A stretch of 64,000 nt of DNA from Candidatus Undinarchaeota archaeon (GTDB lineage: Archaea > SpSt-1190 > JASMDC01): assembly GCA_964519305.1 (NCBI GenBank), contig CAZFHY010000001.1, positions 1 through 64,000 of the forward strand, written 5' to 3'. Each line of letters begins with the position of its first letter. Position 1 is the first letter of the stretch. Under the pieces are notes generated by a model, which had not been told where the DNA came from, did not search any database, and saw only the letters and a program-made list of their open reading frames with translations. The position numbers and the translations under genes were made by a program. Of the stretch, positions 2,750 through 48,897 are shown in pieces.

Positions 2750-4564
2750 ATGGTAACGGCTGAAGGTTACAGACGAGCGCAGATGTCCCTGTACGCGCTC
2801 ATCGCCGTGGCCGTCGTCCTCATGATCCTCATGGGCGCGTTCACCCGCTGGCGGTCCACCGAAGCGACCGAGGAAGTGCGCGAGGTCCGTGCTCGCCATA
2901 CGAAACGGCTCATGGAGAAGGCCCAGGACCTTCTCGGGACCTCTCTGGAGAGCGCTGTCCACCGCGCGACCGACGAGATGGCTACTCACGGCGGATACCT
3001 TGCATCGAACGTTCCTAAGGAGTCGGTCCGTTCCGTCCCCTATTGGTTCCTCCGAGGAAAGGTCGTGAGCATCCCATCGGTCGAGACCATGGAGGATATG
3101 CTCTCCCACCACATCGCCGAGCTCATCTCCAAGGACCTCGAAGAATCCCGCGAGGAAGCTCTGCGAATGGGATTCCCTGAGGTGAGCGTCCGTCTATACG
3201 ACACGGGATTGCTCGTAAAGGCCTCGGTCGACGCCAAGGGGGGAGAGGACGGCGAACTAAGTAAGCTCACGAGCGAGCAGGAGGTCCCGCTTCGGCTCAA
3301 ACCGCTCAGGGACCTTGCCGAACGCTACGTGCGTAACTACACCGTCGAACGCACCATCGAGGCGTCACTGCTGAACGCGCTCATACAGGACCCGCGCATA
3401 CCTGCACCGCCCGGTATGGTCTCTAAGAACCTGGGTTGCTCCGAGCGGGAAGCGCTGGCCTACAAACGCGATATGATCGCGCCCATGCGCGAGAACGCCC
3501 GGATGGCCGTGGCCCTGGAACTGCGGCGGTTGTCAGAGAGCGAGCTGGTCACAAGGGACACGGACTGGTCGATCGAGGCTGACGAACGTGGCCTTGAGTT
3601 CTCTCTCCTGGCCAACGAGGGTGTGCAGGCCGAGGGCCAGGACTGGGAGAGCACCAATGTCGTATACTTCGTCCCGGCCCGTATGCCCCACTCCGCTCTT
3701 GCCGAGGAGGGGATGTGCTCTTCCTACTACACTGTCGCGTACACTGCCCGGTTCCCGGTCGAGGTCACCATCACCGACCTGTCCAAGCCCGGGAGGCTGA
3801 AGGGCGTGGACGGCACGGCCGCCACCCGACCACTTACGTTCAAGATACTGCTCGGGATACTGGTGGAGCACAACGAGCCCGATGCTGTCGACCTCAATAT
3901 CACGCTCGACGAGAACGTCACCGACCTCTGCACGGGTGCATGCTCGCTCAGGGTCATCGTGGAGAACTCCAAAGCAGGCAGGATCTCTCTGGACTCGTGC
4001 TCGTACGAGTACAGGGGCGAGGTCTTCAATGCTCCAAAGGTCCCGTGCGGAGTCCATTCCCTGGTCGTGGAGTCAGGGGAACCAATCGGTCTTGCACGAT
4101 ATTCCAAGCAGGTGAACATCATCGCCAATCACACCGAGCAGATCGCGTTCACGGAACGGAGCACGGTGCTCGGTAAGGCGGTCGTGCGCGAACGGGTCTA
4201 CTGCACCACCTCAGGTACCGTAAGAGAGCTTGGTGACCGTCCCGCCGGGTTCGTCGACGGTGAGCCGCCCATGTATATCAAGGTGGTCATCCGCTCACTG
4301 GAGGGTGATGGCCTTGAGACGCGGTCCACTATCGCTGACGAGGACGGGCGGTTCCTCATCTCCGGCCTCGATCCGGGGAAGTACCTCATTCTCGCCCGTA
4401 GCTCTCTAGACCTCACCAACATCCCCTCCTATAAGGTCCAGCCCACCGCTTTCATCCAGGACGTTCTGCCAGGTCGGAACGAGCTCGAGATCGTGCTCGA
4501 ACCGCTCCTCATGGAACTCGTCGATGACACATACGTGGCCGTCAGCTCGCGCAAGGAATGCTGA
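2750..4564 (+). CDS. Large pilin-like protein 1 (class III signal peptide; C-terminal CnaB/carboxypeptidase-regulatory-like domain)
   Basis: RRA|QMSLYALIAVAVVLMILMG; shared core EMATHGGY...VPYWF.RGK...IPS; DEDGRFLISGLDPGKY. Paralog of 7528 and 36982. Confidence 0.7.
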   Translation: MVTAEGYRRAQMSLYALIAVAVVLMILMGAFTRWRSTEATEEVREVRARHTKRLMEKAQDLLGTSLESAVHRATDEMATHGGYLASNVPKESVRSVPYWFLRGKVVSIPSVETMEDMLSHHIAELISKDLEESREEALRMGFPEVSVRLYDTGLLVKASVDAKGGEDGELSKLTSEQEVPLRLKPLRDLAERYVRNYTVERTIEASLLNALIQDPRIPAPPGMVSKNLGCSEREALAYKRDMIAPMRENARMAVALELRRLSESELVTRDTDWSIEADERGLEFSLLANEGVQAEGQDWESTNVVYFVPARMPHSALAEEGMCSSYYTVAYTARFPVEVTITDLSKPGRLKGVDGTAATRPLTFKILLGILVEHNEPDAVDLNITLDENVTDLCTGACSLRVIVENSKAGRISLDSCSYEYRGEVFNAPKVPCGVHSLVVESGEPIGLARYSKQVNIIANHTEQIAFTERSTVLGKAVVRERVYCTTSGTVRELGDRPAGFVDGEPPMYIKVVIRSLEGDGLETRSTIADEDGRFLISGLDPGKYLILARSSLDLTNIPSYKVQPTAFIQDVLPGRNELEIVLEPLLMELVDDTYVAVSSRKEC

Positions 4565-4798
4565 CCGTTCGGAGGACGTCTGTCCGGCAACACAGCGAAC
4601 AGAGGATAATACTTCAGAATCTAGACCGAATAAGGATGTTTAGGCCGCAGGAAAGCGTGAGGAACAACAAGCAACCATCGGCACAAGGTGGACACCACTT
4701 CCAACGATTCGATGAAAAAGACGCAACAACGCCCCAACAACTCATATATATAGTTGCAGCCTACAAGTACGAGTGAGCTAAGGCTCTGGAGTGGTCCC

Positions 4799-7528
4799 AT
4801 GATGGGGAAGGCACGTTTGTTCACGGTTCTGATTGCAGTTTGTATTGCGCTCCTGCCCGTAGCGGTAGGAGTAGCGGATGCAGGTATCGAGGAGGTGGCC
4901 GATGTCTCTACATTGGCACTGATCCGGGGAAAGGTGACGTTCCATATGCCCTTGGGCACCGCCCCGCCACAGGACACCCTCGACGCAGTATGTCGTCGGC
5001 TCACTGACGCTGTATCCTGCATCCCGAGCGTTGTGGACTCGCCCGCGGGCTCGGATGTGAGCTTCAACGTCGATCTCCCTCACGATATCTCAATCATCTC
5101 CGCCGAGGGAGATGGACCGGATCGTCTCGTGCTCCTCTCCAAGCTCCGTCCGGTCCAGTTCGCCCTCGGTGCCGGGTTCGGTGACATGACCCGGGCACTG
5201 AGCATACGATACCCGACCCATACAACTGTCGTTGAGGAGGTCAGGGACACCGAGATCACTGCGACCATCCCACTGGACATTTCCGCTGCGCGGGACCTTC
5301 CACTAGCGGATCCCGGCCCCGTGTCCGTGGGCGAGGTGTTCAGCGTTCCTGCTCCCGGGGGCGACATGTGCATCTTCGCTATCATCGATGGATCGAGCGT
5401 CGCCGAGTCGCGTCTCGCGCCCGGCTGTCGCGATGCCGTGCTCTCCACCGCAGGGCTCAATGCGGGGAGCTCTTACAGGCTTCTCGTCGTGTCCGTGGAC
5501 GTCGGGGGCATCCGTGCTGCTACCAAGGACCTGTTCCTCGAGAGCGTGGACAATCCGTTGTCCATGGCGCTCGACAGGGATGCTGTGGTCATGGGCGATC
5601 CCTTCACCATCGAGCTCGGCCTCACTGCGGAGTCTTGCACGGTCACACTAACGGATCCGTCAGGGGTCGTGGCCGACCGACTGGAGCTCACAGATTGCGA
5701 CCGTGTCCCCGTGGGGACGTCCTCAGGCCTTGCTCCGGGTAGGTATATCGTCAGGGTAGAGGCCAAGACCGGCAATAAGATCAGCACTGCAGCGCGCACC
5801 ATCGAGGTCCGCTCAGGCGGTATGGACGCCACGTCCATGAAGGTCGAGAAGCGCTCATACCTTCCGGGCGAGACAGCGAGCATCCACGTGGACACCCCCG
5901 GCGATTACTGTTACACGGGCGTGTACAACATGGACAACATCAAGGTCGGTGAGGACGCTTCATTCGGATGTGGTTCGTACGAGATGAAGCTCGACGAGGC
6001 ACTCCCGGCCGGGAAGTACCTCATCAAGACAGAGGTGTTCGACAGGGGCACCCTCAAGGCCGTTGCCTCCACACCTATCGAGGTCGAGGCATGGGAACCG
6101 CGTATGCGTACCACCCAGGCCGAGCTGTGCACTCACGGGTTCATCGCCGTGGACGACCACCGGATCCAATGCATTTCAGAGAGCGACTCGTGCATCCCAT
6201 CATCCATCTCGGCACCGTTCTGCGTTTGCTTTGTCGAAGGCGATGCCCGGTCCGTGTGCGAGTACGGTGATTCCTGCACGCCTCAGGGGTGCAAACCGCC
6301 AGCAGTCGCGAGCCCGTTCATCATCGTCCACGAGCTTAGCGGCCGATGTCTTGCGAGACGTGGTGCCGATACGCTGACCTGCCTCGAGATCGGTGAGATC
6401 TGCGGCGACGAGTGCGTGTGCCTCTCAGGTGACGGCTCGCCCATATCTGCCTGCACGGACGGTCAGGCGTGCCAACCCGAGGGCTGTCGGACCGCCAACC
6501 TGGAGTTCAAGGTCGAGTCACGCTCCGCAGACCACGTCCGTTCCGATATCCTCAGAGGAGGCCTCACCGTGACCTGGGAGGGTACGGTCGACTTCGAGGG
6601 GCGCCGCCTCGTGACCGGTCCGCTCTCCGGTAAGGCGTTCATCGGGCAGCTTGAGGCCGAGGCGTTCGATGCCTCGTTCGACGGAGAGAAGTGGGCCGTA
6701 AAGGCCGTGTTCAAGGGTGAACTCGGACCGGGAGTGTACGAGCTCTACCTCATGACCGAGCACGGCGGATACACCCACGTCATCCGCAGAGCCTTCGAGG
6801 TCTGGTACTCGGTGGATGCGGGCGATCTCGAGGTCTCGATCGAGCGCGTCACACCGCGCCAGCTCTCCAGAAAGGAGATGGAGACGGGCGCGACCGTCGA
6901 GCTGGGAGCGCGTATCCGCGACGCTCGGGGGACCGATCTCGTATATCTACCCCAGGACGCTTTCTCGCTCAAGGCCGGTGGTCTGACCGCCGACTCCGTG
7001 GGTGTCGAGTACAGCCCTGTCTCCGGTATCTGGACCATCGTTGGCGACCTGTACGGACGCTCTACGGGTGAGGACTCTGTATCCTTGACCGTGGAATACC
7101 TGGGACGCCGGGGCTCGATGAAGAGTCCCATCGCAGTGATGGAACGGGTCCCTCTCTCGATCAGGATCCTAAAAGTGGACCCGGGCACCCGGGACAAGCC
7201 GCTCTTCTACATGCTCACCACACTCGGTTTCGACCTGGACGTGTTCCTCCACATCCGGGGTGCCGACCGCGTGGACAAGGAGAGCTTTGACATCCGTATG
7301 GGCGGCCACCGTGTCAAGCCCGAGGATATATCATACATCGTCAGTTCGCTGGAGGGAACGCGTGTGCACATCACGCGCGTGCGCCTCTGCCCGCCGGAGA
7401 AACCAAACACGCTCGTCCCGCTGGTGGTGGGCGTGACGGTCGGTGGTGAAGGGGCCCAGGACACTACCACCGTCCTTATCAAGCGTAATCCGGGCAACTG
7501 GGACAACGTCGCGGAGGCGAGGTGCTGA
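4799..7528 (+). CDS. Exported ~910-aa protein with Ig/MG2-like repeats and a central Cys-rich region
   Basis: Sec-type signal; repeated DRDAV.MGD / EKRSY.PGE...PGRY beta-sandwich units; two C-x-GE-x-C modules. Full-length paralog of 34169. Confidence 0.8.
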   Translation: MMGKARLFTVLIAVCIALLPVAVGVADAGIEEVADVSTLALIRGKVTFHMPLGTAPPQDTLDAVCRRLTDAVSCIPSVVDSPAGSDVSFNVDLPHDISIISAEGDGPDRLVLLSKLRPVQFALGAGFGDMTRALSIRYPTHTTVVEEVRDTEITATIPLDISAARDLPLADPGPVSVGEVFSVPAPGGDMCIFAIIDGSSVAESRLAPGCRDAVLSTAGLNAGSSYRLLVVSVDVGGIRAATKDLFLESVDNPLSMALDRDAVVMGDPFTIELGLTAESCTVTLTDPSGVVADRLELTDCDRVPVGTSSGLAPGRYIVRVEAKTGNKISTAARTIEVRSGGMDATSMKVEKRSYLPGETASIHVDTPGDYCYTGVYNMDNIKVGEDASFGCGSYEMKLDEALPAGKYLIKTEVFDRGTLKAVASTPIEVEAWEPRMRTTQAELCTHGFIAVDDHRIQCISESDSCIPSSISAPFCVCFVEGDARSVCEYGDSCTPQGCKPPAVASPFIIVHELSGRCLARRGADTLTCLEIGEICGDECVCLSGDGSPISACTDGQACQPEGCRTANLEFKVESRSADHVRSDILRGGLTVTWEGTVDFEGRRLVTGPLSGKAFIGQLEAEAFDASFDGEKWAVKAVFKGELGPGVYELYLMTEHGGYTHVIRRAFEVWYSVDAGDLEVSIERVTPRQLSRKEMETGATVELGARIRDARGTDLVYLPQDAFSLKAGGLTADSVGVEYSPVSGIWTIVGDLYGRSTGEDSVSLTVEYLGRRGSMKSPIAVMERVPLSIRILKVDPGTRDKPLFYMLTTLGFDLDVFLHIRGADRVDKESFDIRMGGHRVKPEDISYIVSSLEGTRVHITRVRLCPPEKPNTLVPLVVGVTVGGEGAQDTTTVLIKRNPGNWDNVAEARC

Positions 7529-9330
7529 TGTTGAACCGACAGCGAGCCCAGTTGTCGATGATGGCGCTCATGGCCATCTCTCTGGCGATCATCGTTATCG
7601 TCGGGGGATATCTCTATCAGGGCCGGACCGAGCGCGAGATAAGGGTAGGCCGCATCGCTTCCGAGTCGACCCGCGAGCTCCTCATCAAGCTCGAGCAGCA
7701 GGTGGACTCTTTCCTCACCGACGCCATGTACGAGACTGCGTACGAGATGGCCACCCATGGAGGTTTCATCTCCGAGAACGTGCCCGATCCGAACCATTAC
7801 GGAGTGCCGTACCTTTTCTATCGTGGGAAGATCGTCAACGTCCCGTCGGCGGAGGTCATGGAACAGATGTACGCCGATGAGGTCAAGCGTCGCATGGAGA
7901 CAAAGATCGCCGAGGTCCGACGTGAACTGGAGGGGCGTGTCATGCTCGCTGTCCCCGAGGTGCAGATCACGATCATCGATGATGCCATCATGGCCAAGAT
8001 GGAGCTGCCCGTCGAGGTACAGGGCGAGTCCCAGGCACGCTCGCGCATCCCCGTCTCTACGACGGTCCCCCTGCGCATCAAGCGCCTGCGGGACCTGGCC
8101 GAACGGTACGTCCACGACTATGCCACCGTAAGACGCATGGAGACCAGCATCCTCCACGGCATCACCAATGACGACCGCATCTCAAATCCACCCGGCGGTG
8201 TCACCCGGACGATCCCCTGTGAGGGGAAGACCATCTTCCGTACCAAGAAGGAACTGGTCACGCCCTTCAGGGAGAACACACAGCTATCGGTGTCCTTGGA
8301 GCTCAAGCGGGTGCGCGAGAACAAGGACCTGACCGCCGACCATCTCGAATGGGACGTGGACCTCAATCCCCGCGAGATCGAGTTCAGCTTCCTCGCGAAC
8401 GAGGATGAGGGGGAATTCAAGAGCACGGACGTGATCTACTTCGTCCCCATCCCCTTCGCTATGTTCGACCTGCGCGATGGGCTGTGCTTCTCAAAGTACT
8501 TCGTCCACTACGACGTCAACTTCCCTGTGCGTTACACCATCCGGGACATCATGCCCACGGCCCAGGTCATCGGGAGCGAGACCAAGCTAGAGGTCCGCCC
8601 CCTGGAGTTCCAGTTCTACATGATGCCGCTGCTCGAGGGCGAGGACGCGTTCGCTGTCGATCCGGCGGTCAAGGCACCCCAGACTATGGACGACATGTGC
8701 CAGGGCTCCTGCTCCGTCGACCTCACCATCACCAACTCCGACGCGGGCACCGTGTGGCTCGACTCGTGCAAGTACCGCTACTCCGGTGGCCGCCTCTCCC
8801 GGGAGGGGGTCGTGTGCAAGCTGCATACCATGGTCGTGGAGCCCGATGCCCAGTTCAGCCTTGCCAAGCACGTGGCACAGGTGAACATCGTCGGTGCATA
8901 CCGCGAGATGATCACGCTCAAACCCTTCGCCACCGTTTCCGGTTCCATCGGCGAGAACCGCCGTGTGTACTGCACTCAGATGAAGTCGATACGCGAGCTG
9001 GGTGCAGAGCCACTTGGTTCGATGGAGGGAGGTGCCGGCGGGTATGTCGAGGTTATCTTCCAACCCCTCTCCCCGCGCATCGAGCGAAGACGTGCCGTGG
9101 CGGACGAGAAAGGTAATTACCTGCTCTCCTTCATCGTCCCTGGCCGCTATCTCGTCATGGCCTTCCCATCGCGCGACGATTCGGGGATGCCTTATGGTAC
9201 GGTGGAATCGAAGGGTATGATCTATGAAGTAAAGGAGGGTAAGAACACACTCGACATCACGCTGGAGCCGTTGGGCGTCCAGAAGATAGGGAACGACTAC
9301 GTGCGAGTATCGGCAACGGAGGATTGTTAA
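7528..9330 (+). CDS. Large pilin-like protein 2
   Basis: RQRA|QLSMMALMAISLAIIVIVGG; TGATG overlap with the upstream stop; same core as 2750; ends TEDC. Confidence 0.75.
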   Translation: MLNRQRAQLSMMALMAISLAIIVIVGGYLYQGRTEREIRVGRIASESTRELLIKLEQQVDSFLTDAMYETAYEMATHGGFISENVPDPNHYGVPYLFYRGKIVNVPSAEVMEQMYADEVKRRMETKIAEVRRELEGRVMLAVPEVQITIIDDAIMAKMELPVEVQGESQARSRIPVSTTVPLRIKRLRDLAERYVHDYATVRRMETSILHGITNDDRISNPPGGVTRTIPCEGKTIFRTKKELVTPFRENTQLSVSLELKRVRENKDLTADHLEWDVDLNPREIEFSFLANEDEGEFKSTDVIYFVPIPFAMFDLRDGLCFSKYFVHYDVNFPVRYTIRDIMPTAQVIGSETKLEVRPLEFQFYMMPLLEGEDAFAVDPAVKAPQTMDDMCQGSCSVDLTITNSDAGTVWLDSCKYRYSGGRLSREGVVCKLHTMVVEPDAQFSLAKHVAQVNIVGAYREMITLKPFATVSGSIGENRRVYCTQMKSIRELGAEPLGSMEGGAGGYVEVIFQPLSPRIERRRAVADEKGNYLLSFIVPGRYLVMAFPSRDDSGMPYGTVESKGMIYEVKEGKNTLDITLEPLGVQKIGNDYVRVSATEDC

Positions 9331-15757: not shown

Positions 15758-15764
15758 GGGGTAT

Positions 15765-22064: not shown

Positions 22065-22074
22065 GGGGCATCTG

Positions 22075-34112: not shown

Positions 34113-34134
34113 GGAGCGGACGTTCCTAATCAAC

Positions 34135-34142
34135 TTATATAA
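34135..34142. promoter_or_regulatory. Palindromic TATA box shared by divergent genes
   Basis: TTATATAA, 23 nt from GTG 34112 (-) and 27 nt from ATG 34169 (+). Confidence 0.65.
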
Positions 34143-34168
34143 ATCTTGTCGGGCGTTCGATTGTTCAC

Positions 34169-38850: not shown

Positions 38851-38858
38851 TACCCGAG

Positions 38859-38880: not shown

Positions 38881-38904
38881 GTCTTGACAACGCGGGCAGT
38901 ACTC

Positions 38905-40319: not shown

Positions 40320-40337
40320 GATGCACACTTCCCTTGC

Positions 40338-41309
40338 TCAGCCGAACAGGTCCTCCTCGAGCGTCTTCTTCTTAGGCGCGGCCCGCTCGCCGAAGCGTAC
40401 GTCCTCGAGCTCGCCCATGAGGTCGGCCTCGAGACTGACGGCCTTACGCGCTTCTTGTTCGGCCCCTGCACGGACCTCCATGAAATAATTATATATCTTC
40501 TGATAACGCGGCCGGAAAGTCAGGGAGAACAGTTCATAGTCCGGTGTGGGCGCGATGAAGGGGCGCACGCCTGGGATTATGCCAGGTGGTTCCTCGGGCA
40601 TGCACACGTAGGAGAACGAGTTATCGGTGAGGGAGAAGTCGGAGGCGCACACGTTCTGGAGGATGGCCGTGTTCAGGTCCATGCCCTGGAGGCTCTCTGC
40701 GAACGACGGTACGCACAGTTCGCCGGTGAGGCCGTCCGAGGCCAGGTACTGGCGCATGCCGTACTTGCTGTTGAGGCCCCTGAGGATGTCGAGCATGTAC
40801 TGGACGAACGTGTCCATGCGCTCGAACGCCGTGTGCTGGTCGAGCGCCTTTACCTTGCTCGTCAGTCGCTCCTCCTCGAGCACGATGACCAGGTCGGCGG
40901 TCTCTTTCATGTCCACCATCGTGGAGATTAGGTGGCGCTTGGCCTGCATGGGGTACTCCTTCATGTAGGGGAGCAGGAGGACGGCGCAGAGGAAAGCGTC
41001 GGGCTGGTACTGGCGGACGCGCTCGAAAGCGTGTGCGGCCAGCGCCCCGTACTCGGTGGTGGGATTGAGCAATGCCACGCTCATGCCATCGGTCATGTCC
41101 AGGGAGTGGTCCACCCAATCCCGGACAAGCCCCATCTTGAATTCGCGCTTGCTGGTGTCGTCGGAGATCTCGATCTTGAGGCATTTATTCCGATCGAACT
41201 CCTTGAGGTCGCTGATGCTCGCCGACGCCAGTGCGAAGGGTGCGCGGTGGCGCTCAGTGTACCGCTCGATCCATGTGGCGCCGAAGGTCCCGAGCCCGAT
41301 GAGGTTCAT
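40338..41309 (-). CDS. Degenerate tubulin/CetZ-fold protein lacking the GGGTG signature
   Basis: MNLIGLGTFG; AVLLLPY..E; ADLVIVLEEERL; acidic tail ending LEEDLFG. ATGA overlap with the upstream gene sets the start at 41309. Confidence 0.6.
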   Translation of the reverse strand: MNLIGLGTFGATWIERYTERHRAPFALASASISDLKEFDRNKCLKIEISDDTSKREFKMGLVRDWVDHSLDMTDGMSVALLNPTTEYGALAAHAFERVRQYQPDAFLCAVLLLPYMKEYPMQAKRHLISTMVDMKETADLVIVLEEERLTSKVKALDQHTAFERMDTFVQYMLDILRGLNSKYGMRQYLASDGLTGELCVPSFAESLQGMDLNTAILQNVCASDFSLTDNSFSYVCMPEEPPGIIPGVRPFIAPTPDYELFSLTFRPRYQKIYNYFMEVRAGAEQEARKAVSLEADLMGELEDVRFGERAAPKKKTLEEDLFG

Positions 41310-43105: not shown

Positions 43106-43107
43106 GA

Positions 43108-44673
43108 TCACCACCCCAGGTACCAGTAGGCCTCCTCGAACTTTTTGACGTACTCCTCGGGCGTGTGCCGCCTCAGGTTCTCCGACTCGACCACGAACTT
43201 GAAGCGGACGATACCGCCTCCTCCACCGATCCGCCATCGGACGAAGAACAGGAACGATACGAAGGCGAAAGCGAACGATACCGCCACGAAGGTGCACTCG
43301 AACCCGTAGATCTCGCACACTAGGCCCGCAGGATGGAGGGTGACCGGGAATGTCTCGTTCCCCGCCTCGAAGCCACGGTAGTAGATACGACCGATGAGGT
43401 TGCAGGCGAGCGGTTCACGGGTCGCGGGCGTGCTCACGTTGCACCGGTCTATACCGTACTCGCCAGCTCCGCAGTGTCGGTCGAGCAACGTCTCGTTCCC
43501 TCCGCAGCGAAGGAAGAGCTCATAAGGAAGACCGGGGTCAGTGAGGCTGGCGAACACGATGGTACTTGCGTTCCCCTCGATGTCCTTTGCTACTGGCCGG
43601 AACTGCTCGAAAGCGGGTGAGAACTCCCTCACCTCGATCTCCAGCCCCTCCTCCTGCTCGTCGCCGTCCGTGGAGAAGGTCACCGATCCCTCGTAGATGA
43701 TCCGGCCCTCGTACTCGTGGAGTGGCAGGCGTCCCAGGTGGAGCGGGCAAGTGATCTCGTCGAGGATGTTGGTGCAGGCCTGGTCCACCGGAAGGGTCTG
43801 ATTGACGTACGCGGTGTTGTTCCAGGTGAGGATGATCGAGATCGTGTTGTCGCGCTGGAGTATATCGTTCCACTTCTCAATGGATGTGTTTACGACCACG
43901 GGATCGTACTGGTTCACGAGCCGGGTGTAGTTGGTAAGAGTGAACAAGGGGTCCTCGGCGTACACGACCGCGAAGGGCGTCTCCATGTAATCGACGATGC
44001 GCGATCCAGTTACGATCTCAAGGCGCGCCGTGTACCTCCCTCGCTCGTCGGGCACGTCCACGCTCACCGCATGTCGGATGCTGCCCTGCATATCGCAGCT
44101 GAGGTCGATCGGTTGATGGCTGCGCGCAACGACCTCCCGGCCCGGCCCGAGCACGTACAGGGTCGTGTTGTAGCTCACACCGTACTCCGGGCGTCGGATG
44201 ACGTAGTCGATATAGAGCTGCTCTCCGGGGCCGAACACGTCCTTGCTCAAGCCAGCCTCGAGCGCGGTGTTGACGAAGAACACGGTATGGATGTTGAACG
44301 GGATGGACTCTGACACGGGGGACGTGACATCGTAGGTGAAGTAGATCGTGTGGTCACCAGGGGTGCTGCATAGCGGGGCCTTCGTCAGGATGGTGAACGC
44401 ACGCTCGACGTCCTTGCGCACCTCGAGCTTGGGCAGACCGCCCGGGTAATCGGTACCCCAGTGGTACTGGGAGTTCGTATCGTTCTTCCGGTTGGCGATG
44501 CCGTACGCGGGCTCATCGATAAGACCGCGTACCGTGACCTTGTGGACGCCCTGGTCGCCAGGGAGGAGCACGTGGCGTACGTTCTGTACGTCGACGAGGA
44601 CCTGCTCGCCCGCAGAGACGCTCGCAGCGCACAGAGCGCATACGAGAACGAGAACAAGAAGCTTGGACGGCAA
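43108..44673 (-). CDS. Type I membrane surface protein with Ig-like domains
   Basis: Signal peptide; LSKDVFGPGE...GRYTARLEI beta-sandwich; many NxT sequons; C-terminal TM with cytoplasmic tail. Confidence 0.8.
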   Translation of the reverse strand: MPSKLLVLVLVCALCAASVSAGEQVLVDVQNVRHVLLPGDQGVHKVTVRGLIDEPAYGIANRKNDTNSQYHWGTDYPGGLPKLEVRKDVERAFTILTKAPLCSTPGDHTIYFTYDVTSPVSESIPFNIHTVFFVNTALEAGLSKDVFGPGEQLYIDYVIRRPEYGVSYNTTLYVLGPGREVVARSHQPIDLSCDMQGSIRHAVSVDVPDERGRYTARLEIVTGSRIVDYMETPFAVVYAEDPLFTLTNYTRLVNQYDPVVVNTSIEKWNDILQRDNTISIILTWNNTAYVNQTLPVDQACTNILDEITCPLHLGRLPLHEYEGRIIYEGSVTFSTDGDEQEEGLEIEVREFSPAFEQFRPVAKDIEGNASTIVFASLTDPGLPYELFLRCGGNETLLDRHCGAGEYGIDRCNVSTPATREPLACNLIGRIYYRGFEAGNETFPVTLHPAGLVCEIYGFECTFVAVSFAFAFVSFLFFVRWRIGGGGGIVRFKFVVESENLRRHTPEEYVKKFEEAYWYLGW

Positions 44674-44699
44674 CCTATCACAACACCACAGCGGGTATC

Positions 44700-44707
44700 T
44701 TTATATC
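44700..44707. promoter_or_regulatory. TATA box midway between divergent operons
   Basis: TTTATATC about 25 nt from both TTG 44673 (-) and ATG 44731 (+) in a 57-bp gap. Confidence 0.55.
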
Positions 44708-44730
44708 TCTTGCACGAAAGGAAGCCCCTG

Positions 44731-46677
44731 ATGGCCTCCCTGAAGCTCGACAGGAACAGGTGCACGAAGTGCGGAAAGTGCGTGGTCGCATGTCCGAACA
44801 ATGCCATCGTCATGCGTAACTTCCCTGCGTTCTGCAAGCACTGCGACCTCAAGGCCGCACCGTGCTACCAGGCCTGCCCGCTGGGCGCCATCGTGGACGT
44901 AGGTAACGGTATTCTCAAGGTGGACGTGAACCGCTGCGATCCCTACCAGTGCAAGAAGGAGTGCCAGAAGTGGTGTCAGTGGGATGGCGTGTTCGTGTTC
45001 GGCGACAAGGCCAAGAAGTGCGATCTGTGCTTCGACTACCAGAACCAGCCCAACTTCATCCCCAAGTGCATCGAGGTGTGCGACGCCAAGGCCATCACCA
45101 CCGACCTCATGCAGGAGGTCGTGCTCGACTACGCAGGATGGAGCGCCGAGTCCATTCCCCAGGAGATCATCGCAGAGGTCCTCCAGAGCTTCACCTACGG
45201 CCAGGTCGTCAAGGTGCAGGGCCAGCCGGTCCCGTACTACTACGTCAACTCGCTACCCCAGCTCACCGACTGGGCCCAGACCAAGCTCCTGGGTCTCACC
45301 ATCAAGAAGTACATCGACACCGGCAAGGCGGACCAGGACCCGTTCTCCTCGCTGATGATGATCATGCGCAAGTCCGCCCAGTGGGTGGGCACCAGCGTGG
45401 ACGAGAACATGCTAAAGGAGCTCGCCAACATCGCTCTCATGAACACGAAGGGCTACGGGCCCTTCGACGTCCTCCTCGAGGACGACCAGCTGGAGGAGTT
45501 GATGTGCATCGGCCTCGGTAAGGAGAGGCCAATGTATGTCTACCACCGCGAGTACGGGATGCTGCGGACCAACCTGTTCTTCCCCGACGAATACATGGAC
45601 TTCACGGTGGACCCACCGGAGAAGAAGTCCGGCGAGGAGGTCCTGTGGAAGATCATCGAGAAGATGATCGAGCCCATGGGGGAGCGTATCGACCGCCAGC
45701 ACCCCAGGGTCAACGCGCAGCTGCCGGACGGCTCCCGTCTCCACGCGTGCATCAAACCAATGGGATTCTCCGGACCGTCGGTGACGATCCGAAAGTTCCG
45801 GGCCGCACCGTTCTCGCCCATCGACACCATCAGGTTCAACACCATCTCTCTGGAGGCCGTGGTGTACTGCTGGATCGCAATGGAGAGCGAGATCTCGATG
45901 ATCGTGGCCGGAAACACAGGTTCCGGAAAGACCACCTCGCTCAACGCATTCTCTACGTTCATCCCTCCCGAGGAGCGCATCCTCATCCTCGAGTCAACGC
46001 CCGAAATCAATCTGCCCCACCCGCACAAGGCACGTCTGGTCACCGTCAACAACGCTGACCCGCCCATCGGTATGCAGGACATCATCGAGGACACGCTGCG
46101 TATGCGGCCCGACCGTGTGGTAGTAGGAGAGGTCCGGAGCGGCCCAGAGGCACAGGCGTTCATGAACTCGGTACTGGCAGGTCAGGCACGCGGTTCCATG
46201 TGCACGTTCCACGCACAGGACGCAGTATCTGTCGTCAAGCGTATGAAGAACCCTCCCATGAACATCTCACCTCTCGACCTGCAGGTCCTGGACCTCGTCT
46301 TCGTCCAGCGACGTATGTCGCGGGTCGAGGGCAGCAAGCGGAAGCAGATCCGTCGCGTCGTCGAGATCGCCGAGATCGACAAGCATAATATGAGCGACGA
46401 GGGCGTACCGGTCATCCATCCGATCTATCGCTACAATCCGGACACCGATGTCGTCGAGCGCGTGCACTCGGGTCTGTCCCCGCTAGAGGAGCGCATATCC
46501 AAGTACAACCTCTGTCTCGACGAGGGGCAGTTCTGGGGCGAGGTACAGGCGAGGACCAAGATGCTCAAGTACCTGATGGCCAACAACATCCGTGACATCA
46601 AGGTCTTCATGGACTACATCATCCAGTACGGTACGGATCCTGCTTTCAAGCAGAGCATAATCAACATGAACATCTGA
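44731..46677 (+). CDS. TadA/CpaF/VirB11-family secretion ATPase with N-terminal multi-[4Fe-4S] ferredoxin domain
   Basis: CTKCGKCVVACP, CKHC...PCYQACP, CDPYQCKKECQKWCQ, CDLC...KCIEVCD; LPDGSR; TIRKF; Walker A GNTGSGKTT; LRMRPDRVVVGEVR; TFHA. Confidence 0.9.
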   Translation: MASLKLDRNRCTKCGKCVVACPNNAIVMRNFPAFCKHCDLKAAPCYQACPLGAIVDVGNGILKVDVNRCDPYQCKKECQKWCQWDGVFVFGDKAKKCDLCFDYQNQPNFIPKCIEVCDAKAITTDLMQEVVLDYAGWSAESIPQEIIAEVLQSFTYGQVVKVQGQPVPYYYVNSLPQLTDWAQTKLLGLTIKKYIDTGKADQDPFSSLMMIMRKSAQWVGTSVDENMLKELANIALMNTKGYGPFDVLLEDDQLEELMCIGLGKERPMYVYHREYGMLRTNLFFPDEYMDFTVDPPEKKSGEEVLWKIIEKMIEPMGERIDRQHPRVNAQLPDGSRLHACIKPMGFSGPSVTIRKFRAAPFSPIDTIRFNTISLEAVVYCWIAMESEISMIVAGNTGSGKTTSLNAFSTFIPPEERILILESTPEINLPHPHKARLVTVNNADPPIGMQDIIEDTLRMRPDRVVVGEVRSGPEAQAFMNSVLAGQARGSMCTFHAQDAVSVVKRMKNPPMNISPLDLQVLDLVFVQRRMSRVEGSKRKQIRRVVEIAEIDKHNMSDEGVPVIHPIYRYNPDTDVVERVHSGLSPLEERISKYNLCLDEGQFWGEVQARTKMLKYLMANNIRDIKVFMDYIIQYGTDPAFKQSIINMNI

Positions 46678-46689
46678 GGGCCCAATCGC

Positions 46690-47967
46690 ATGACGGACGA
46701 CATGTTCTCGGTGAAGGCAGGCCAAGACAAGTCTTGGAACCAGGGGGCACAGGACTGGGCCCAGTCTCCCGGGCAGGCCAACCAAGGCTGGGGAGCACCG
46801 GCACCGCCGGCCATGCAACAGGCACCGAGCCACCCGCCCGGACCCATATCACCGCCGGCCATGCAACATGGACCCGGACCCATGCAACACGGACCTGGGC
46901 CAATGCAGCACGGACCCGGCCCTTCACCCATGGGAGGCGCTACGGCCCCCGTCGGTGGCGGCGACTGGTACTCGACGTCCGTTGGTGAACAGACACAGCA
47001 GACCACTGATGTCGAGGAAAAAGAGGCAGAGCAGCGCTCACGGTTCAAGTTCATGGGCCCAATGCTCCTGCGCATGGGCCCCGAGCGGATCAAGTGGTAC
47101 CGCCAGGCCTGTGATGCCGTGGAGTTCTTCATGTTCGCCGACGACTGGGTGCTTGTCTCCTCGCTGATAGGTATCGCTGTATTCGCCCTGGCGTTCCCGA
47201 TACTCACATCGCTATCTGACGCATTCATCATGATCGTCCTCGTCCCCGTGACCGGAGGCGGTGTGTTCGCCATCCTGATCTCATATCCTATCTTCAAGTT
47301 CGAGAGCCGCAAGGACGAGATCGAGACCAACCTCCCGGACGCCCTGTTCCAGGCGGCGAGCAATCCGCCCCGGACCCACTTCGTGGAGCTGCTGACGGGC
47401 CTGACGAAGATCGGGTACGGACCGCTGACCGACGAGCTGCGGGTCACGGTGAAGGAGATCGAGAAGGGCTCGTCCGTCAAGGAGGGTCTGGAGAAGCTCT
47501 CCGAGCGCAACCAGTCGAAGATCCTGGAGAGGGCCTGCTACCTCCTAATCCGGGCGCAGGAGCAGGGTGTAGATATCGTCGAGGCCCTGGCCGCCCTGGC
47601 CACGGACATCAAGGAGACCAAATACCTCCTGCGTGAACAGGCCGCGTCGCTCCAGCTCCAGAAGATCACACTTCTGGCAGCGGGGGCCGTCCTCATCCCC
47701 CTCATCCTCGGGTTCGTCGTAGGGCTGGCGGAGTCCATGGGCAATTTCAGCGAGGACAAGGCAGAGATCATCGCTGCACAGGTCCAGACGGTGCAACCAA
47801 TCTTCCTCGGGTACGTGGTCATCCACGCCCTCGAGGCGTGTCTGGCCATCGGCCGTCAGGAGGGCGATGCCAAGAAGGCCGTTTACTATGTGATCCCAGT
47901 GCTCCTGATCGCGATTATTCTGTTCCAGTACGTGGCCCCTCAGGCCATGATGATGTTCATGGGGTGA
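46690..47967 (+). CDS. TadB-like type II secretion system F-family membrane platform protein with P/G/Q-rich N-terminal extension
   Basis: IETNLPDALFQAAS; GYGPLTDEL; IEKGSSVKEGL; 5 TMs; follows the ATPase. Confidence 0.85.
   Translation: MTDDMFSVKAGQDKSWNQGAQDWAQSPGQANQGWGAPAPPAMQQAPSHPPGPISPPAMQHGPGPMQHGPGPMQHGPGPSPMGGATAPVGGGDWYSTSVGEQTQQTTDVEEKEAEQRSRFKFMGPMLLRMGPERIKWYRQACDAVEFFMFADDWVLVSSLIGIAVFALAFPILTSLSDAFIMIVLVPVTGGGVFAILISYPIFKFESRKDEIETNLPDALFQAASNPPRTHFVELLTGLTKIGYGPLTDELRVTVKEIEKGSSVKEGLEKLSERNQSKILERACYLLIRAQEQGVDIVEALAALATDIKETKYLLREQAASLQLQKITLLAAGAVLIPLILGFVVGLAESMGNFSEDKAEIIAAQVQTVQPIFLGYVVIHALEACLAIGRQEGDAKKAVYYVIPVLLIAIILFQYVAPQAMMMFMG
46861..46923 (+). repeat. 21-bp coding repeat, (MQHGPGP)x3
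   Basis: Three ATGCA(A/G)CA(T/C)GGACC... units. Confidence 0.9.
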
Positions 47968-47994
47968 TATGAGATAGCAACTTTCGGCGACGAG

Positions 47995-48897
47995 ATGGAG
48001 GTGTACGAGCAGGAGAGCAGGTTCCGCCAGTTCCTGTTCACCTTCAATCAAGCGTTCGCCATCTCGAACCGCCTCCGGGAGAAGGACCGGAACGAGCTGT
48101 CGGTCGTCCTGCGCAAGGCGCGCATGGACTATGATCCTGAAGAGTACGTCACTCTCACCTACGTTGCATGGATCGCTTCGTTCTTCGGCGTACTCCTCGT
48201 CGGCGGTATCTTCGTCATCGCGCTCGGTGACGTCGTAGGCTACACCAACATGATCGTGGGCGACGCCATTCTCGCGTTCTTCGTGAGCACCATCGTCTAC
48301 TCCTACTCCAAGAGCTATCCGTACGGGGAGATCAAGGACATCGGCCTCCGGATCGAGGCGGAGCTGCCTTTCATGGTCCGGAACCTCGCCATCGAGCGCG
48401 AGATGGGCATCCCCATCAAGGACTCCTTCGAGAAGCTGGCCGAGGAGGAGGGGCTCCTGGGACGCGAATCGCGGGTCATCCTTGCCGAGATCGAGCGCGG
48501 CTACTCGGTGACACAGGCACTTCGCGCTTCCTGTCAGCGTACGGAGAGCCGGTTGTACGTGCGCACCATGGCACAGCTCACCCACGCCCTGGAGATAGGT
48601 ACCGAGATCAAGTCTGTGCTCAACGCCATGGCAAAGGAGGCCGAGACCAACCTTCGTATCGCGCTCAAGGAGTACTCGGGCAAGGTATCCACGCTCTCCA
48701 TCATGTACGTCATCGTGGCGGCCGTGGTCCCCGCCATCCTGGGCGCAGCGCTCATCCTCTCGGTGCTCTTCGAGGAGGGCTCCACCCAGCTCCTCTCCGC
48801 GGACATGCTCATGCTCCTCTACTGGGGCCTCTTCCCCCTGGCCAACTACACCATCCTGGCCGTCATGAAGCGGGGACAGCCGTACATAATGGTCTGA
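47995..48897 (+). CDS. TadC-like type II secretion system F-family protein
   Basis: LRKARM; IEAELPFMVRNLAIE...G; EIERGYSV..AL; LKEYSGK; 4 TMs. Confidence 0.85.
   Translation: MEVYEQESRFRQFLFTFNQAFAISNRLREKDRNELSVVLRKARMDYDPEEYVTLTYVAWIASFFGVLLVGGIFVIALGDVVGYTNMIVGDAILAFFVSTIVYSYSKSYPYGEIKDIGLRIEAELPFMVRNLAIEREMGIPIKDSFEKLAEEEGLLGRESRVILAEIERGYSVTQALRASCQRTESRLYVRTMAQLTHALEIGTEIKSVLNAMAKEAETNLRIALKEYSGKVSTLSIMYVIVAAVVPAILGAALILSVLFEEGSTQLLSADMLMLLYWGLFPLANYTILAVMKRGQPYIMV

What the first reader, a model, noticed from the sequence alone, without database searches (positions are those of the whole stretch)
2750..48897. Candidate undescribed archaeal surface machine: Tad-type pilus/secretion system with giant Cys-rich cargo, linked to a tubulin-family pair
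Seen: the ATPase plus two platform genes (44731-48897) sit head-to-head, across 57 bp with one central TATA box, with a translationally coupled operon of two membrane-anchored Ig-like proteins, a degenerate tubulin-fold protein and a CetZ-like GTPase. Nearby are three ~600-aa class III-signal proteins, two ~920-aa partners and three 2100-2600-aa secreted paralogs, one with the pilin-like domain fused inside it. Established: TadA/TadB/TadC-type proteins assemble class III-signal proteins, and haloarchaeal CetZs control cell shape and motility. Inference: the parts form one co-regulated, cytoskeleton-positioned, disulfide-rich adhesion or cell-contact apparatus. No prepilin peptidase or small major pilin is visible in this window.
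Basis: partly seen in the sequence, partly recalled or inferred. Interest (0 to 1): 0.85.

Follow-up and report, generated by a model that had tools for sequence, protein, structure and literature searches.

The report
Archaeal large-pilin surface protein cassettes
An uncultured marine archaeon spends about one fifteenth of its genome on repeated gene cassettes for a 600-residue pilin-like anchor protein with cysteine-rich partner proteins, and two of these cassettes lie next to a pilus-assembly motor that is paired with tubulin-like genes.

Summary
The single-machine reading is only partly supported.

- **Cassettes.** The three ~600-aa proteins (P) carry archaeal class III signal motifs. P602 models with a 76-residue N-terminal helix (pLDDT 88).
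- **Scale.** The P, Q (~920 aa) and giant G genes are a genome-wide expansion: 21 P, 22 Q and about 23 G genes, 6.5% of a 3.6-Mb genome. Only two cassettes lie in this window.
- **Wider family.** A distant P-like family with the same signal peptide occurs in 23 of 299 other archaeal genomes sampled, all small.
- **Likely assembly machine.** All 23 of those genomes carry a different pilus system: a ~760-aa ATPase with a fused ~720-aa membrane protein. In this genome that system sits in one operon with a Q-P pair on contig C2. It is a better candidate than the window's ATPase.
- **The window's ATPase.** It is an Epd/Tad-like core with two platform genes and an N-terminal Fe-S domain. It shares a 57-nt promoter region with two anchored proteins, a weakly tubulin-like protein and a CetZ-like tubulin.
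- **Tubulin link.** CetZ genes next to pilus loci are already in print.

Verdict: a new variant of a known kind. No expression data were available and the complex prediction never ran.

The parts
2714..4564 (+). P616: 616-aa class III-signal protein of the P family, 8 Cys, C-terminal Cys
   Evidence: N-terminus ...RRA|QMSLYALIAVAVVL. It is 35% identical to P602. No Pfam family passes its cut-off.
4799..7528 (+). Q924: secreted 27-Cys partner protein of the Q family. Its end overlaps the start of P602 by 7 nt.
   Evidence: Sec-type N-terminus. One of 22 paralogs in the genome. Alignment A8 shows a conserved Cys-rich core. No Pfam, PDB or Atlas assignment.
7522..9330 (+). P602: 602-aa class III-signal protein, the P member that was modelled
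   Evidence: Motif RA|QLSMMALMA. AlphaFold2 pLDDT 88.0, pTM 0.72. Helix 3-78, an alpha/beta head, then two beta-sandwich domains at 394-469 and 469-585.
9332..15757 (+). G2141: giant secreted protein with 96 Cys. Kazal-like stretch at residues 919-960.
   Evidence: PDB sequence match to Kazal-type inhibitors, E 3.6e-6.
15735..22064 (+). G2109: giant secreted protein with 99 Cys
   Evidence: 59% identical to G2141 over the last 648 residues. Conserved C-terminal Cys motif.
22048..29964 (+). G2638: giant secreted protein with 106 Cys and an internal P-type head domain at residues 348-764
   Evidence: 39% identical to P602 residues 48-468, E 2.8e-100. The G001 ortholog is 88% identical.
33249..34232 (-). 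R327: membrane-associated winged-helix (MarR/DUF7343-like) regulator, divergent from Q937. Its true start is probably below 34137.
   Evidence: Pfam DUF7343 and MarR_2, both below their cut-offs. Paralogs lie beside three other cassettes. A TATA-like TTTATAT sits at 34137-34143.
34169..36982 (+). Q937: secreted 29-Cys protein of the Q family
   Evidence: 31% identical to Q924. The G001 ortholog is 85% identical.
36973..38850 (+). P625: class III-signal protein of the P family. It overlaps Q937 by 10 nt.
   Evidence: Motif TRG|QMALIGLAAV. The G001 ortholog is 81% identical.
39060..40319 (-). CetZ-like tubulin-family GTPase
   Evidence: Pfam Tubulin 1.6e-16 and CetZ_C 8.6e-12. Best PDB sequence matches are 4b46 and 4b45. 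The GGGSGCG loop is visible in the alignment.
40338..41312 (-). 324-aa protein, a possible degenerate tubulin-superfamily member
   Evidence: hhalign against the genome's own tubulins gives 43% probability, E 2.5e-4, columns 91-178. The control gives 0.16%. Atlas feature neighbours are tubulin/FtsZ clusters at 0.92. No Pfam or PDB match. The AlphaFold2 model failed.
41306..43105 (-). 599-aa protein with a signal peptide and a C-terminal membrane anchor
   Evidence: N-terminal and C-terminal hydrophobic segments. The start lies 2 nt after the upstream stop. No family match.
43108..44673 (-). 521-aa protein with a signal peptide, a C-terminal membrane anchor and a cytoplasmic tail of about 35 aa
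   Evidence: No family or PDB match.
44674..44730 (.). 57-nt divergent promoter region with a central TTTATATC
   Evidence: TTTATAT occurs 4 times in the window against 0.43 expected.
44731..46677 (+). FlaI/TadA-family secretion ATPase with an N-terminal multi-cluster ferredoxin-like domain
   Evidence: Pfam T2SSE 3.7e-32 plus Fer4. NCBIfam FlaI 231 bits and TadA family 140 bits, both below their cut-offs. There are 17 Cys in the first 120 residues.
46690..47967 (+). Half-size platform protein (T2SSF domain, C-half-like) with a Q/P/G-rich N-terminal extension
   Evidence: Pfam T2SSF 2e-09. Matches ArlJ profile positions 267-458.
47995..48897 (+). Half-size platform protein (T2SSF domain, N-half-like)
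   Evidence: Pfam T2SSF 3.4e-13. Matches ArlJ profile positions 5-232.

Best explanation
The window holds two neighbouring things, not one dedicated machine.

(A) Two copies of a repeated surface-protein cassette.
- P is a ~600-aa protein with an archaeal class III (prepilin-type) signal.
- After cleavage by a prepilin peptidase, P's long hydrophobic N-terminal helix is probably taken up by a type IV filament (T4F) assembly system. It would then sit as a membrane-proximal stalk or short pseudopilus.
- Its head and two beta-sandwich domains would carry Q and, in about half the cassettes, giant G proteins. Q and G are Sec-exported and cysteine-rich.
- The roughly 20 diverged cassettes would give alternative adhesion or cell-contact specificities.
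- The most likely assembly machine is the conserved DPANN-type T4F: a ~760-aa ATPase plus a fused ~720-aa membrane protein. In this genome it lies in one operon with a Q-P pair on contig C2.
- The window's own machine may also serve P proteins.

(B) An Epd/Tad-like ('system 1') T4F core.
- It has an Fe-S-domain ATPase and two half platform genes.
- It is transcribed divergently from an operon of two membrane-anchored surface proteins and a tubulin pair.
- This is a further case of the CetZ-to-T4F gene link already reported.

Shown: the gene anatomy, the signal motifs, the P fold, the paralog census, co-occurrence and synteny in the sister species.
Inferred: signal cleavage, assembly, P-Q-G binding, disulfide bonding and any positioning role of the tubulins.
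For: P is a pilin-type protein:
- 19 of 21 P paralogs carry [KR][GA]|Q followed by a hydrophobic stretch.
- P602 models at pLDDT 88 with helix 3-78.
- Its C-terminal domains resemble transthyretin-like and Gram-positive pilin beta-sandwiches: Z 9.8 for 5aq0_B and Z 9.3 for 3phs_A.

The cassettes are units:
- 20 P-Q pairs abut, overlapping mostly by 1-13 nt. The order is Q then P in 15 and P then Q in 5.
- P and Q distance matrices correlate, r = 0.92, with 0 of 2000 permutations reaching that value.
- The P head domain is fused inside G2638.
- P, Q and G genes total 237,300 nt, 6.5% of the genome.

Wider distribution:
- A distant P-like family with MKKRGQITLFII-type N-termini and 8 Cys turned up in the profile search.
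- It occurs in 23 of 299 other genomes.
- Large Cys-rich genes lie directly downstream in the four genomes inspected.

Link to the C2-type machine:
- The C2 operon runs ATPase767, a 726-aa 9-helix membrane protein, Q951, P658.
- It is conserved at 91-94% identity in G001.
- The 726-aa protein family is present in 23 of 23 P-like-bearing genomes against 122 of 276 others. Fisher p = 2.2e-8, not corrected for phylogeny.
- The five genomes with the best P-like matches all have such a long ATPase (5 of 5) and a Peptidase_A24 (5 of 5).

Proximity: three of eight T4F loci in this genome lie within 6 kb of a P or Q gene. 9.6% of the genome is that close, binomial p = 0.034.

Part (B):
- Domain hits.
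- The operon is conserved in G001 at 81-96% identity.
- A second locus reads peptidase A24, CetZ-like, T2SSF-like.
- Literature: passages of PMC9856176, PMC4858521 and PMC13705601.
Against: - No experiment or expression data exist. No RNA run holds the stretch.
- The co-occurrence of the P-like family with the C2-type platform may only reflect shared ancestry. Both are common in small DPANN-like genomes.
- In G100, G198 and G079 the P-like genes lie far from, or on another contig than, the C2-type ATPase and platform genes.
- The 726-aa protein matches a T2SSF profile only weakly: 21% probability, E 0.001.
- Q and G profiles do not match the large Cys-rich neighbours in the four other genomes. 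The 'P plus giant partner' theme is therefore not shown to be homologous.
- The window's ATPase lies 5.9 kb from cassette B, so it cannot be excluded as the machine for P.
- 600 aa is far larger than typical filament-forming pilins.
- The proximity threshold of 6 kb was chosen after seeing the data.
- The only relative holding P, Q and G is the sister species, so conserved order there carries little weight.
Confidence: 0.55

Rival explanations
1. The window encodes one integrated apparatus. Its Fe-S ATPase and split platform assemble the P proteins. These display or export Q and G. The tubulin pair and the two anchored proteins position the structure. All parts are co-regulated.
For: - Cassette B ends 5.9 kb from the ATPase, and the tubulin operon lies between them.
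- The same strong TATA-like motif precedes Q937 and sits in the divergent ATPase promoter.
- A second tubulin/T2SSF/peptidase locus on C15 also lies 5.7 kb from a P-Q-G cassette.
- The operon and the core genes are conserved in G001.
Against: - About 20 cassettes are spread over at least 13 contigs.
- Housekeeping genes split the window's cassettes.
- Some cassettes have their own regulator paralogs.
- In the sister species the contigs break between P625 and the CetZ-like gene, with at least 4.4 kb of other sequence there. A 1.2-kb HEPN/nucleotidyltransferase-like pair is inserted between the anchored-protein gene and the 324-aa gene.
- The window-type platform shows no association with the P-like family: 17 of 23 against 198 of 276, p = 0.52.
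- Genomes with Fe-S ATPases (14) and genomes with P-like proteins (23) do not overlap outside this genus.
Confidence: 0.2
2. P is not a substrate of any pilus machine. Its N-terminal helix is an ordinary signal anchor. P, Q and G together form a variable, disulfide-rich cell-envelope or sheath layer.
For: - P is about 600 aa, several times the size of known filament pilins.
- Its C-terminal domains resemble wall-anchored adhesin domains. One match is to the S-layer anchor SlaB (8qox_B, Z 8.1).
- The family takes 6.5% of the genome.
- No T4F genes were seen in the P-like loci of the four other genomes inspected.
Against: - The R-G/A-Q motif directly before the hydrophobic stretch is kept in 19 of 21 paralogs that are only 19-62% identical. 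It is also kept in the distant family. A plain anchor would not need it.
- One Q-P pair lies in an operon with a T2SSE ATPase.
- Peptidase_A24 is present in 5 of 5 of the best P-like genomes.
Confidence: 0.15
3. The linkage is chance. The cassettes, the T4F core and the tubulin operon are three unrelated gene sets that happen to be neighbours. The tubulin pair works with the two anchored proteins only.
For: - A third locus on C8 pairs a divergent tubulin with four anchored or secreted proteins and has no T4F gene.
- G017 has a tandem tubulin pair plus a secreted protein, with no T4F gene in 14 kb.
- 0 of 28 best platform loci in other archaea have a tubulin match within 1.5 kb.
Against: - The 57-nt shared promoter region is conserved with the operon in G001.
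- A second CetZ-like gene lies between a prepilin peptidase gene and a platform-like gene, with 4-nt and 0-nt junctions.
- Published surveys report CetZ next to T4F loci in Thermococcales and Halobacteria.
Confidence: 0.1

Closest known systems
Archaeal T4F 'system 1' / clade 1 (the Epd pilus of Methanococcus; kin of the bacterial Tad pilus)
   Same: A secretion ATPase followed by two separate half-size platform genes. This is the feature that PMC13705601 gives for system 1, which it reports in methanogens, Thermococcales and DPANN (passages).
   Different: - The gene order here is ATPase, C-half, N-half. In 28 related loci the N-half-like gene comes first.
- The ATPase carries an N-terminal multi-cluster Fe-S domain.
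- No pilin or dedicated peptidase lies in the locus.
- NCBIfam scores are far below the equivalog cut-offs.
CetZ-associated T4F loci (Thermococcales clade 1; Halobacteria pilB2/C2, subsystem 4F)
   Same: A CetZ/FtsZ-family GTPase is encoded beside T4F genes (PMC9856176; PMC4858521; PMC13705601).
   Different: - Here the tubulin comes as a pair with a highly diverged second member.
- It is coupled to two anchored surface proteins.
- The lineage is filed with Undinarchaeales (record title).
- A second locus places a CetZ-like gene between a peptidase A24 gene and a platform-like gene.
Sulfolobus bindosome (BasEF with class III-signal sugar-binding proteins)
   Same: Large non-filament proteins (hundreds of residues) with class III signals, thought to be assembled near the membrane by a T4F-type ATPase and platform. 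This description is recalled knowledge. The BasE and BasF profiles give weak hits.
   Different: - BasE scores 111 bits against a cut-off of 1000, and BasF 25 against 1300.
- P has no solute-binding fold match.
- The partners are Cys-rich giants, not transporters.
Large tip or minor pilins of bacterial type IVb pili (CofB, TcpB) that bind a secreted partner
   Same: A pilin-type N-terminal helix followed by extra beta-rich domains, working with a separately secreted protein. This is recalled and was not tested here.
   Different: No sequence or fold match to these proteins appeared. The domain and the organism differ. The comparison is analogy only.
Unnamed P-like family of small DPANN-type archaeal genomes
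   Same: About 600-680 aa, a class III signal (KRGQ|ITLFII), GGY and PYW(Y/F)Y motifs, and 8 conserved Cys. E-values of 1e-8 to 1e-11 to the P profile.
   Different: - Only 14-19% identical to P602.
- Preceded by a ~250-aa polytopic membrane protein that is absent from this genome.
- No Q homolog.
- One to four copies per genome, not 21.

Membership tests
Archaeal T4F system 1 (Epd/Tad-like core) | Secretion ATPase of the T2SSE/VirB11 family | tested here: met
   Pfam T2SSE 3.7e-32 at 111.8 bits against a cut-off of 24.9. The closest NCBIfam models, FlaI and TadA family, score below their equivalog cut-offs.
Archaeal T4F system 1 (Epd/Tad-like core) | Platform encoded by two genes, each with one T2SSF domain | tested here: met
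   T2SSF 2e-09 and 3.4e-13. The two genes match the C-terminal and N-terminal halves of ArlJ.
Archaeal T4F system 1 (Epd/Tad-like core) | Class III signal peptidase available | tested here: met
   Four Peptidase_A24 matches over the cut-off in the genome, none in the window.
Archaeal T4F system 1 (Epd/Tad-like core) | Cognate small major pilin (Epd type) | tested here: inconclusive
   Pfam Pilin_N finds 0 matches in the genome. A cluster of about ten 140-200-aa Cys-rich proteins with N-terminal hydrophobic helices lies on contig C11. They have no family assignment and no shown link to this locus.
Type IV pilin-like (class III signal) proteins - P family | Short basic leader, G/A at -1, then a hydrophobic stretch of about 20 residues | tested here: met
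   19 of 21 paralogs have [KR][GA]Q plus a hydrophobic stretch. One has RG|S and one has an unclear start.
Type IV pilin-like (class III signal) proteins - P family | Extended N-terminal alpha-helix ahead of a globular domain | tested here: met
   AlphaFold2 helix 3-78, with block pLDDT of 53-94 along it and 88.0 for the whole model.
Type IV pilin-like (class III signal) proteins - P family | Cleavage by a prepilin peptidase and assembly by the ATPase and platform | not testable with these tools
   Needs biochemistry or proteomics.
Type IV pilin-like (class III signal) proteins - P family | Globular pilin fold of the head domain | tested here: inconclusive
   The fold searches were dominated by the C-terminal beta-sandwich domains. 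Residues 80-390 were barely tested.
CetZ family (window 39060-40319) | Tubulin/FtsZ GTPase domain with a glycine-rich nucleotide loop | tested here: met
   Pfam Tubulin 1.6e-16. The GGGSGCG loop is seen in the alignment.
CetZ family (window 39060-40319) | CetZ-type C-terminal domain | tested here: met
   Pfam CetZ_C 8.6e-12 at 45.3 bits against a cut-off of 21.6. The best PDB sequence matches are 4b46 and 4b45.
CetZ family (window 39060-40319) | Placement inside the CetZ clade in a tubulin-superfamily tree | not tested
   No tree was built. At E <= 1e-25, relatives were found in only 3 of 301 genomes.
Tubulin superfamily (324-aa protein, window 40338-41312) | Recognisable tubulin/FtsZ GTPase domain | tested here: inconclusive
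   No Pfam hit at E <= 10. hhalign gives 43% probability, E 2.5e-4, over 84 columns against a 0.16% control. Atlas feature neighbours are tubulin clusters at 0.92. The AlphaFold2 model is unusable.
Tubulin superfamily (324-aa protein, window 40338-41312) | GGGTG(S/T)G nucleotide-binding loop | tested here: not met
   No glycine-rich loop precedes the stretch aligned. The consensus there reads LLNPTTEYG. If the protein is a tubulin relative, it probably does not bind GTP in the usual way.
Sulfolobus bindosome (BasE/BasF) | Match to the BasE and BasF models at their cut-offs | tested here: not met
   BasE scores 111.2 bits against 1000. BasF scores 25.2 against 1300.

The most novel reading that the evidence does not exclude
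A so far undescribed contact apparatus is shared across DPANN-type archaea and is massively expanded in a large-genome relative (21 cassettes, 6.5% of the genome). In it, a ~600-aa 'large pilin' is processed by a prepilin peptidase and inserted by the conserved long-ATPase/fused-platform T4F system. It serves as the stalk that holds giant disulfide-rich proteins used to grip other cells. In this lineage, tubulin-family proteins place or gate a second, Fe-S-sensing pilus motor that feeds the same cassettes.
Probability: 0.25. Interest if true: 0.8.

Novelty: new variant of a known kind. Interest (0 to 1): 0.6.

Why it matters
- **An entry point to DPANN attachment.** DPANN-type archaea live by attaching to other cells, yet the molecules that make contact are largely unknown. 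A conserved family with a pilin-type signal, regularly encoded beside very large cysteine-rich proteins, gives a concrete and testable candidate for that apparatus.
- **A natural amplified example.** The 21-fold expansion occurs in a 3.6-Mb genome that is filed with lineages of 0.6-1.2 Mb.
- **Tubulin-pilus link.** The window adds a case of this gene link outside Thermococcales and Halobacteria.
- **Fe-S pilus ATPases.** The window also shows a subfamily of pilus ATPases with an Fe-S domain. I did not find this subfamily in the main text of the two T4F surveys I searched, nor in one full-text literature search. Their supplements could not be seen.

Tried and rejected
- **Complex prediction, never run.** P602 residues 79-602 with Q924 residues 435-909. 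There is no result of any kind.
- **AlphaFold2 of the 324-aa protein.** A 3-sequence alignment gave pLDDT 34. The model is unusable and was not searched.
- **RNA evidence.** No RNA holder was listed for 39000-48900.
- **Laying contigs.** One 51-kb contig of run X3 spans 30000-49000. It may be the source of this DNA, so it is not independent.
- **Word-indexed homolog searches.** They found only self or the sister species for P602, the 324-aa protein and the ATPase N-domain. They say nothing about wider distribution.
- **The search for related loci.** Repeating with A1 found only the sister genome.
- **PDB sequence searches.** Q924, the 521-aa protein and the 599-aa protein gave nothing below E 0.1.
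- **Atlas search for Q.** Best score 0.77, with recognition below the useful level.
- **Profiles of Q and the G C-terminus.** Searched against ORFs around P-like genes of four other genomes, with no hits.
- **Family searches in the own genome.** Pfam Pilin_N and VKOR gave no match. Arch_flagellin gave one weak match below its cut-off.
- **Tubulin next to the closest platform homologs elsewhere.** 0 of 28 loci within 1.5 kb.
- **CetZ422-like genes elsewhere.** Only G017 had one, with no T4F gene in 14 kb.
- **My permissive regex scan for class III signals.** It gave 238 candidates, mostly wrong-frame ORFs. Only the R[GA]Q cases were used.
- **Foldseek and VIA searches of the whole P model.** They reported the C-terminal beta-sandwiches only. 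The head domain remains unclassified.

Full report

On the plus strand:
- P616 at 2714-4564
- Q924 at 4799-7528
- P602 at 7522-9330
- G2141, G2109 and G2638 at 9332-29964
- Q937 at 34169-36982
- P625 at 36973-38850
- a T2SSE ATPase at 44731-46677
- two T2SSF genes at 46690-47967 and 47995-48897

On the minus strand:
- a CetZ-like gene at 39060-40319
- a 324-aa gene at 40338-41312
- two genes for proteins with a signal peptide and a C-terminal membrane helix, at 41306-43105 and 43108-44673

The divergent intergenic stretch is 57 nt and carries TTTATATC in the middle. TTTATAT occurs four times in the window against 0.43 expected, each time in a promoter-like gap. The minus-strand genes are joined by a 2-nt gap, an ATGA overlap and an 18-nt gap. 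G2638 residues 348-764 are 39% identical to P602 residues 48-468. Two words in the finding are not verified. 'Ig-like' has no support beyond topology. 'Tubulin fold' for the 324-aa protein is only weakly supported.

**The P proteins are pilin-type.** In 19 of 21 genomic paralogs, a short basic leader ends in R-G/A and is followed by Q and about 20 hydrophobic residues. A 39-sequence alignment gave an AlphaFold2 model of P602 with mean pLDDT 88.0 and pTM 0.72. It has a helix at 3-78, an alpha/beta head, and two beta-sandwich domains. The last two domains resemble transthyretin-like and Gram-positive pilin or adhesin domains: Z 9.8 for 5aq0_B and Z 9.3 for 3phs_A (Foldseek list). The head was not classified.

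**The cassettes are a genome-wide expansion.** BLAST of the window's proteins against all ORFs of the 3.63-Mb, 42-contig genome found these counts:
- 21 full-length P genes plus one fragment
- 22 Q genes
- 22 G genes, or 23 with one weak member

Twenty P-Q pairs abut, mostly overlapping by 1-13 nt. The order is Q then P in 15 pairs and P then Q in 5. P and Q distance matrices correlate at r = 0.92, with 0 of 2000 permutations as high. This shows that they duplicate and diverge as units. It does not by itself show binding.

G proteins have 3.0-9.8% Cys against a median of 1.33% for long ORFs. They have Sec-type N-termini and a conserved C-terminal Cys motif. Together the three families take 237,300 nt, 6.5% of the genome. 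In the window, riboflavin kinase, Mtd and Ftr genes separate cassette A from cassette B. A winged-helix regulator lies divergent to Q937, and paralogs of it sit beside three other cassettes.

**Distribution.**
- With a profile of close P sequences, 2 of 41 genomes matched: the own genome and its sister species G001.
- A full HMMER scan of 1.84 billion representatives gave 33 clusters below 1e-30.
- Beyond these it gave weaker matches (1e-8 to 1e-11) to ~600-680-aa proteins. These start MKKRGQITLFII..., share GGY and PYWYY motifs and have 8 Cys. None has a Pfam family over its cut-off.
- A profile of these distant proteins matched 23 of 299 other genomes, all 0.7-1.6 Mb.
- In the four genomes inspected, the P-like gene is followed by a 1400-1900-aa protein with 20-49 Cys. 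It is often preceded by a conserved ~250-aa polytopic membrane protein.
- Q and G profiles do not match those neighbours.
- A record of the sister genome is titled 'Candidatus Undinarchaeales archaeon'.
- The 15 same-class genomes sampled are 0.6-1.2 Mb and lack the P family.

**Which machine?** The genome has six T2SSE matches over the Pfam cut-off and four Peptidase_A24 matches.

On contig C2, four genes run without gaps:
- a 767-aa FlaI/TadA-like ATPase
- a 726-aa protein with nine predicted membrane helices
- Q951
- P658

The 726-aa protein matches a T2SSF profile only weakly, at 21% probability and E 0.001. The operon is 91-94% identical in G001.

The five other genomes with the best P-like matches all have a T2SSE match in an ORF of 713-775 aa (5 of 5) and a Peptidase_A24 (5 of 5). 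Only 1 of 5 has a T2SSF match, and that one is weak. Homologs of the 726-aa protein occur in 147 of 301 genomes. These include 15 of 15 same-class genomes and 23 of 23 P-like-bearing genomes, against 122 of 276 others. Fisher p = 2.2e-8, not corrected for shared ancestry.

The window-type platform is present in 17 of those 23 against 198 of 276 others, p = 0.52. Three of eight T4F loci lie within 6 kb of a P or Q gene, where 9.6% of the genome is that close. The binomial p is 0.034 with a post-hoc threshold. I read this as follows. P proteins are T4F clients, and the conserved long-ATPase system is their most likely machine. The window's machine is a possible second one.

**The window's T4F core and the tubulins.** An ATPase with two half platform genes is the published hallmark of archaeal 'system 1' (Epd-like), reported in methanogens, Thermococcales and DPANN (PMC13705601, passages).

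The ATPase's first 120 residues hold 17 Cys, including CxxCxxCxxxCP motifs, with DmsB/NrfC-like hits. A paralog on the same contig has the same domain. Fifteen matches in 14 other small genomes lie at the start of 535-657-aa ORFs, and seven of them are within 3.5 kb of a platform match. Of two checked by Pfam, both have T2SSE and one also has Fer4 families. These 14 genomes do not overlap the 23 with P-like proteins.

The CetZ-like protein has Tubulin and CetZ_C domains. The 324-aa protein gives an hhalign probability of 43% to the genome's own tubulins, over the region after the nucleotide loop. An unrelated profile gives 0.16%. Its language-model neighbours are tubulin/FtsZ clusters at 0.92. 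It lacks the glycine loop, and its structure model failed.

A second locus on C15 reads presenilin-type protease, coiled-coil membrane protein, peptidase A24, CetZ-like, T2SSF-like, PrsW. It lies 5.7 kb from a P-Q-G cassette. G001 keeps the CetZ/T2SSF adjacency there but has a 4.8-kb insert after the peptidase gene.

G001 keeps the window's operon and core at 81-96% identity. However, it carries a 1.2-kb HEPN/nucleotidyltransferase-like pair between the anchored-protein gene and the 324-aa gene. Its contigs also break between P625 and the CetZ-like gene.

Elsewhere, 0 of 28 closest platform loci have a tubulin within 1.5 kb. CetZ422-like genes at E <= 1e-25 occur in 3 of 301 genomes.

The link itself is in print:
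- An FtsZ-family GTPase lies in clade 1 loci of Thermococci and in 4F loci of Halobacteria (PMC4858521, passages).
- cetZ2 and Thermococcales cetZ lie beside type IV pilus regulons (PMC9856176, abstract and passages).
- Subsystem 4F co-localises with CetZ2 (PMC13705601, passage).

**Mechanism proposed.** The following steps are all inferred.
1. A prepilin peptidase removes the leader of P.
2. A T4F ATPase and platform extract the hydrophobic helix from the membrane into a short stalk or pseudopilus.
3. Q and G are exported by Sec and dock on P's head and beta-sandwich domains. The P head fused inside G2638 is Rosetta-stone evidence for P-G contact.
4. The invariant terminal cysteines of P, Q and G suggest intermolecular disulfides.
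5. The diverged cassettes provide alternative binding surfaces.
6. The short cytoplasmic tails of the two anchored proteins could couple to the tubulin pair, and so site the Epd-like machine.

**Comparison and novelty.** The core is a member of a known kind (system 1 T4F), and the CetZ link is known. Three things were not found in the literature searched (T4F papers):
- the P family, its obligate Q partner, the giant G proteins and their 21-fold expansion
- the DPANN-wide P-like family
- the Fe-S ATPase subfamily

The supplements of those papers could not be read and may list relevant arCOGs. I rate the finding a new variant of a known kind, with interest 0.6.

Noticed in passing
window 44731-45420; L045:8435-10891; L093:1429-3171: The pilus ATPase carries an N-terminal multi-cluster ferredoxin-like domain with 17 Cys in 120 residues. 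A paralog in the genome has it too, as do ATPase-length ORFs in 14 other small archaeal genomes. It could make pilus assembly redox-sensitive. It is not mentioned in the main text of the two T4F surveys searched.
   Followed up: partly
whole genome G000; window 30596-32400: The genome is 3.63 Mb and 99.8% complete. All 15 sampled genomes of the same class are 0.6-1.2 Mb, and the sister's record is titled Undinarchaeales. The window also encodes Mtd and Ftr of the methanopterin C1 pathway. A large-genome member of a reduced-genome lineage, or a misplaced lineage, deserves its own look.
   Followed up: no
window 12086-12211 (G2141 residues 919-960): A Kazal-type cysteine-knot stretch inside the giant protein. 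The PDB sequence match to a leech tryptase inhibitor has E 3.6e-6.
   Followed up: no
G000:C8:71502-79544 (L096): A third divergent tubulin (427 aa, Pfam Tubulin 1.9e-21) is followed by four proteins. All four have an N-terminal signal peptide. Two have a predicted C-terminal membrane helix, and two more end in a hydrophobic stretch. This is the same tubulin-plus-anchored-protein theme as in the window, but with no pilus gene.
   Followed up: partly
G000:C11:5343-14501 (L095): A run of about ten genes for 140-200-aa (some larger) Cys-rich proteins with N-terminal hydrophobic helices. Several carry R[GA]Q-type motifs. They are candidate small pilins with no family assignment.
   Followed up: partly
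L078:5387-6401 and L078:391-2940 (G001:C75): In the sister species, HEPN/nucleotidyltransferase-like gene pairs are inserted inside the tubulin operon and beyond the CetZ-like gene. A relative's contig in run X14 shows the same 1229-nt insert.
   Followed up: partly
window 33249-34232; G000:C9:22475-23467, C2:76923-77915, C11:46775-47122: Membrane-associated winged-helix regulators of one paralog family sit beside four cassettes. This hints that each cassette is controlled separately.
   Followed up: no
window 1497-2711 (minus strand): A 404-aa six-helix membrane protein lies divergent from P616. Its C-terminal domain is 48% identical to that of a T2SSF-like protein encoded next to another pilus ATPase, at C18:57024-58274.
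   Followed up: no
L118:481-2652 (G017:C75): An unrelated 1.4-Mb archaeal genome has a tandem pair of tubulin-family genes, one CetZ-like of 385 aa and a second of 334 aa, followed by a secreted protein. No pilus genes lie within 14 kb.
   Followed up: partly
window 46690-47100 (first ~135 residues of the platform protein): A long Q/P/G-rich low-complexity N-terminal extension (PGPMQHG repeats). It also gives a spurious-looking BLAST match to G2141 residues 800-872.
   Followed up: no
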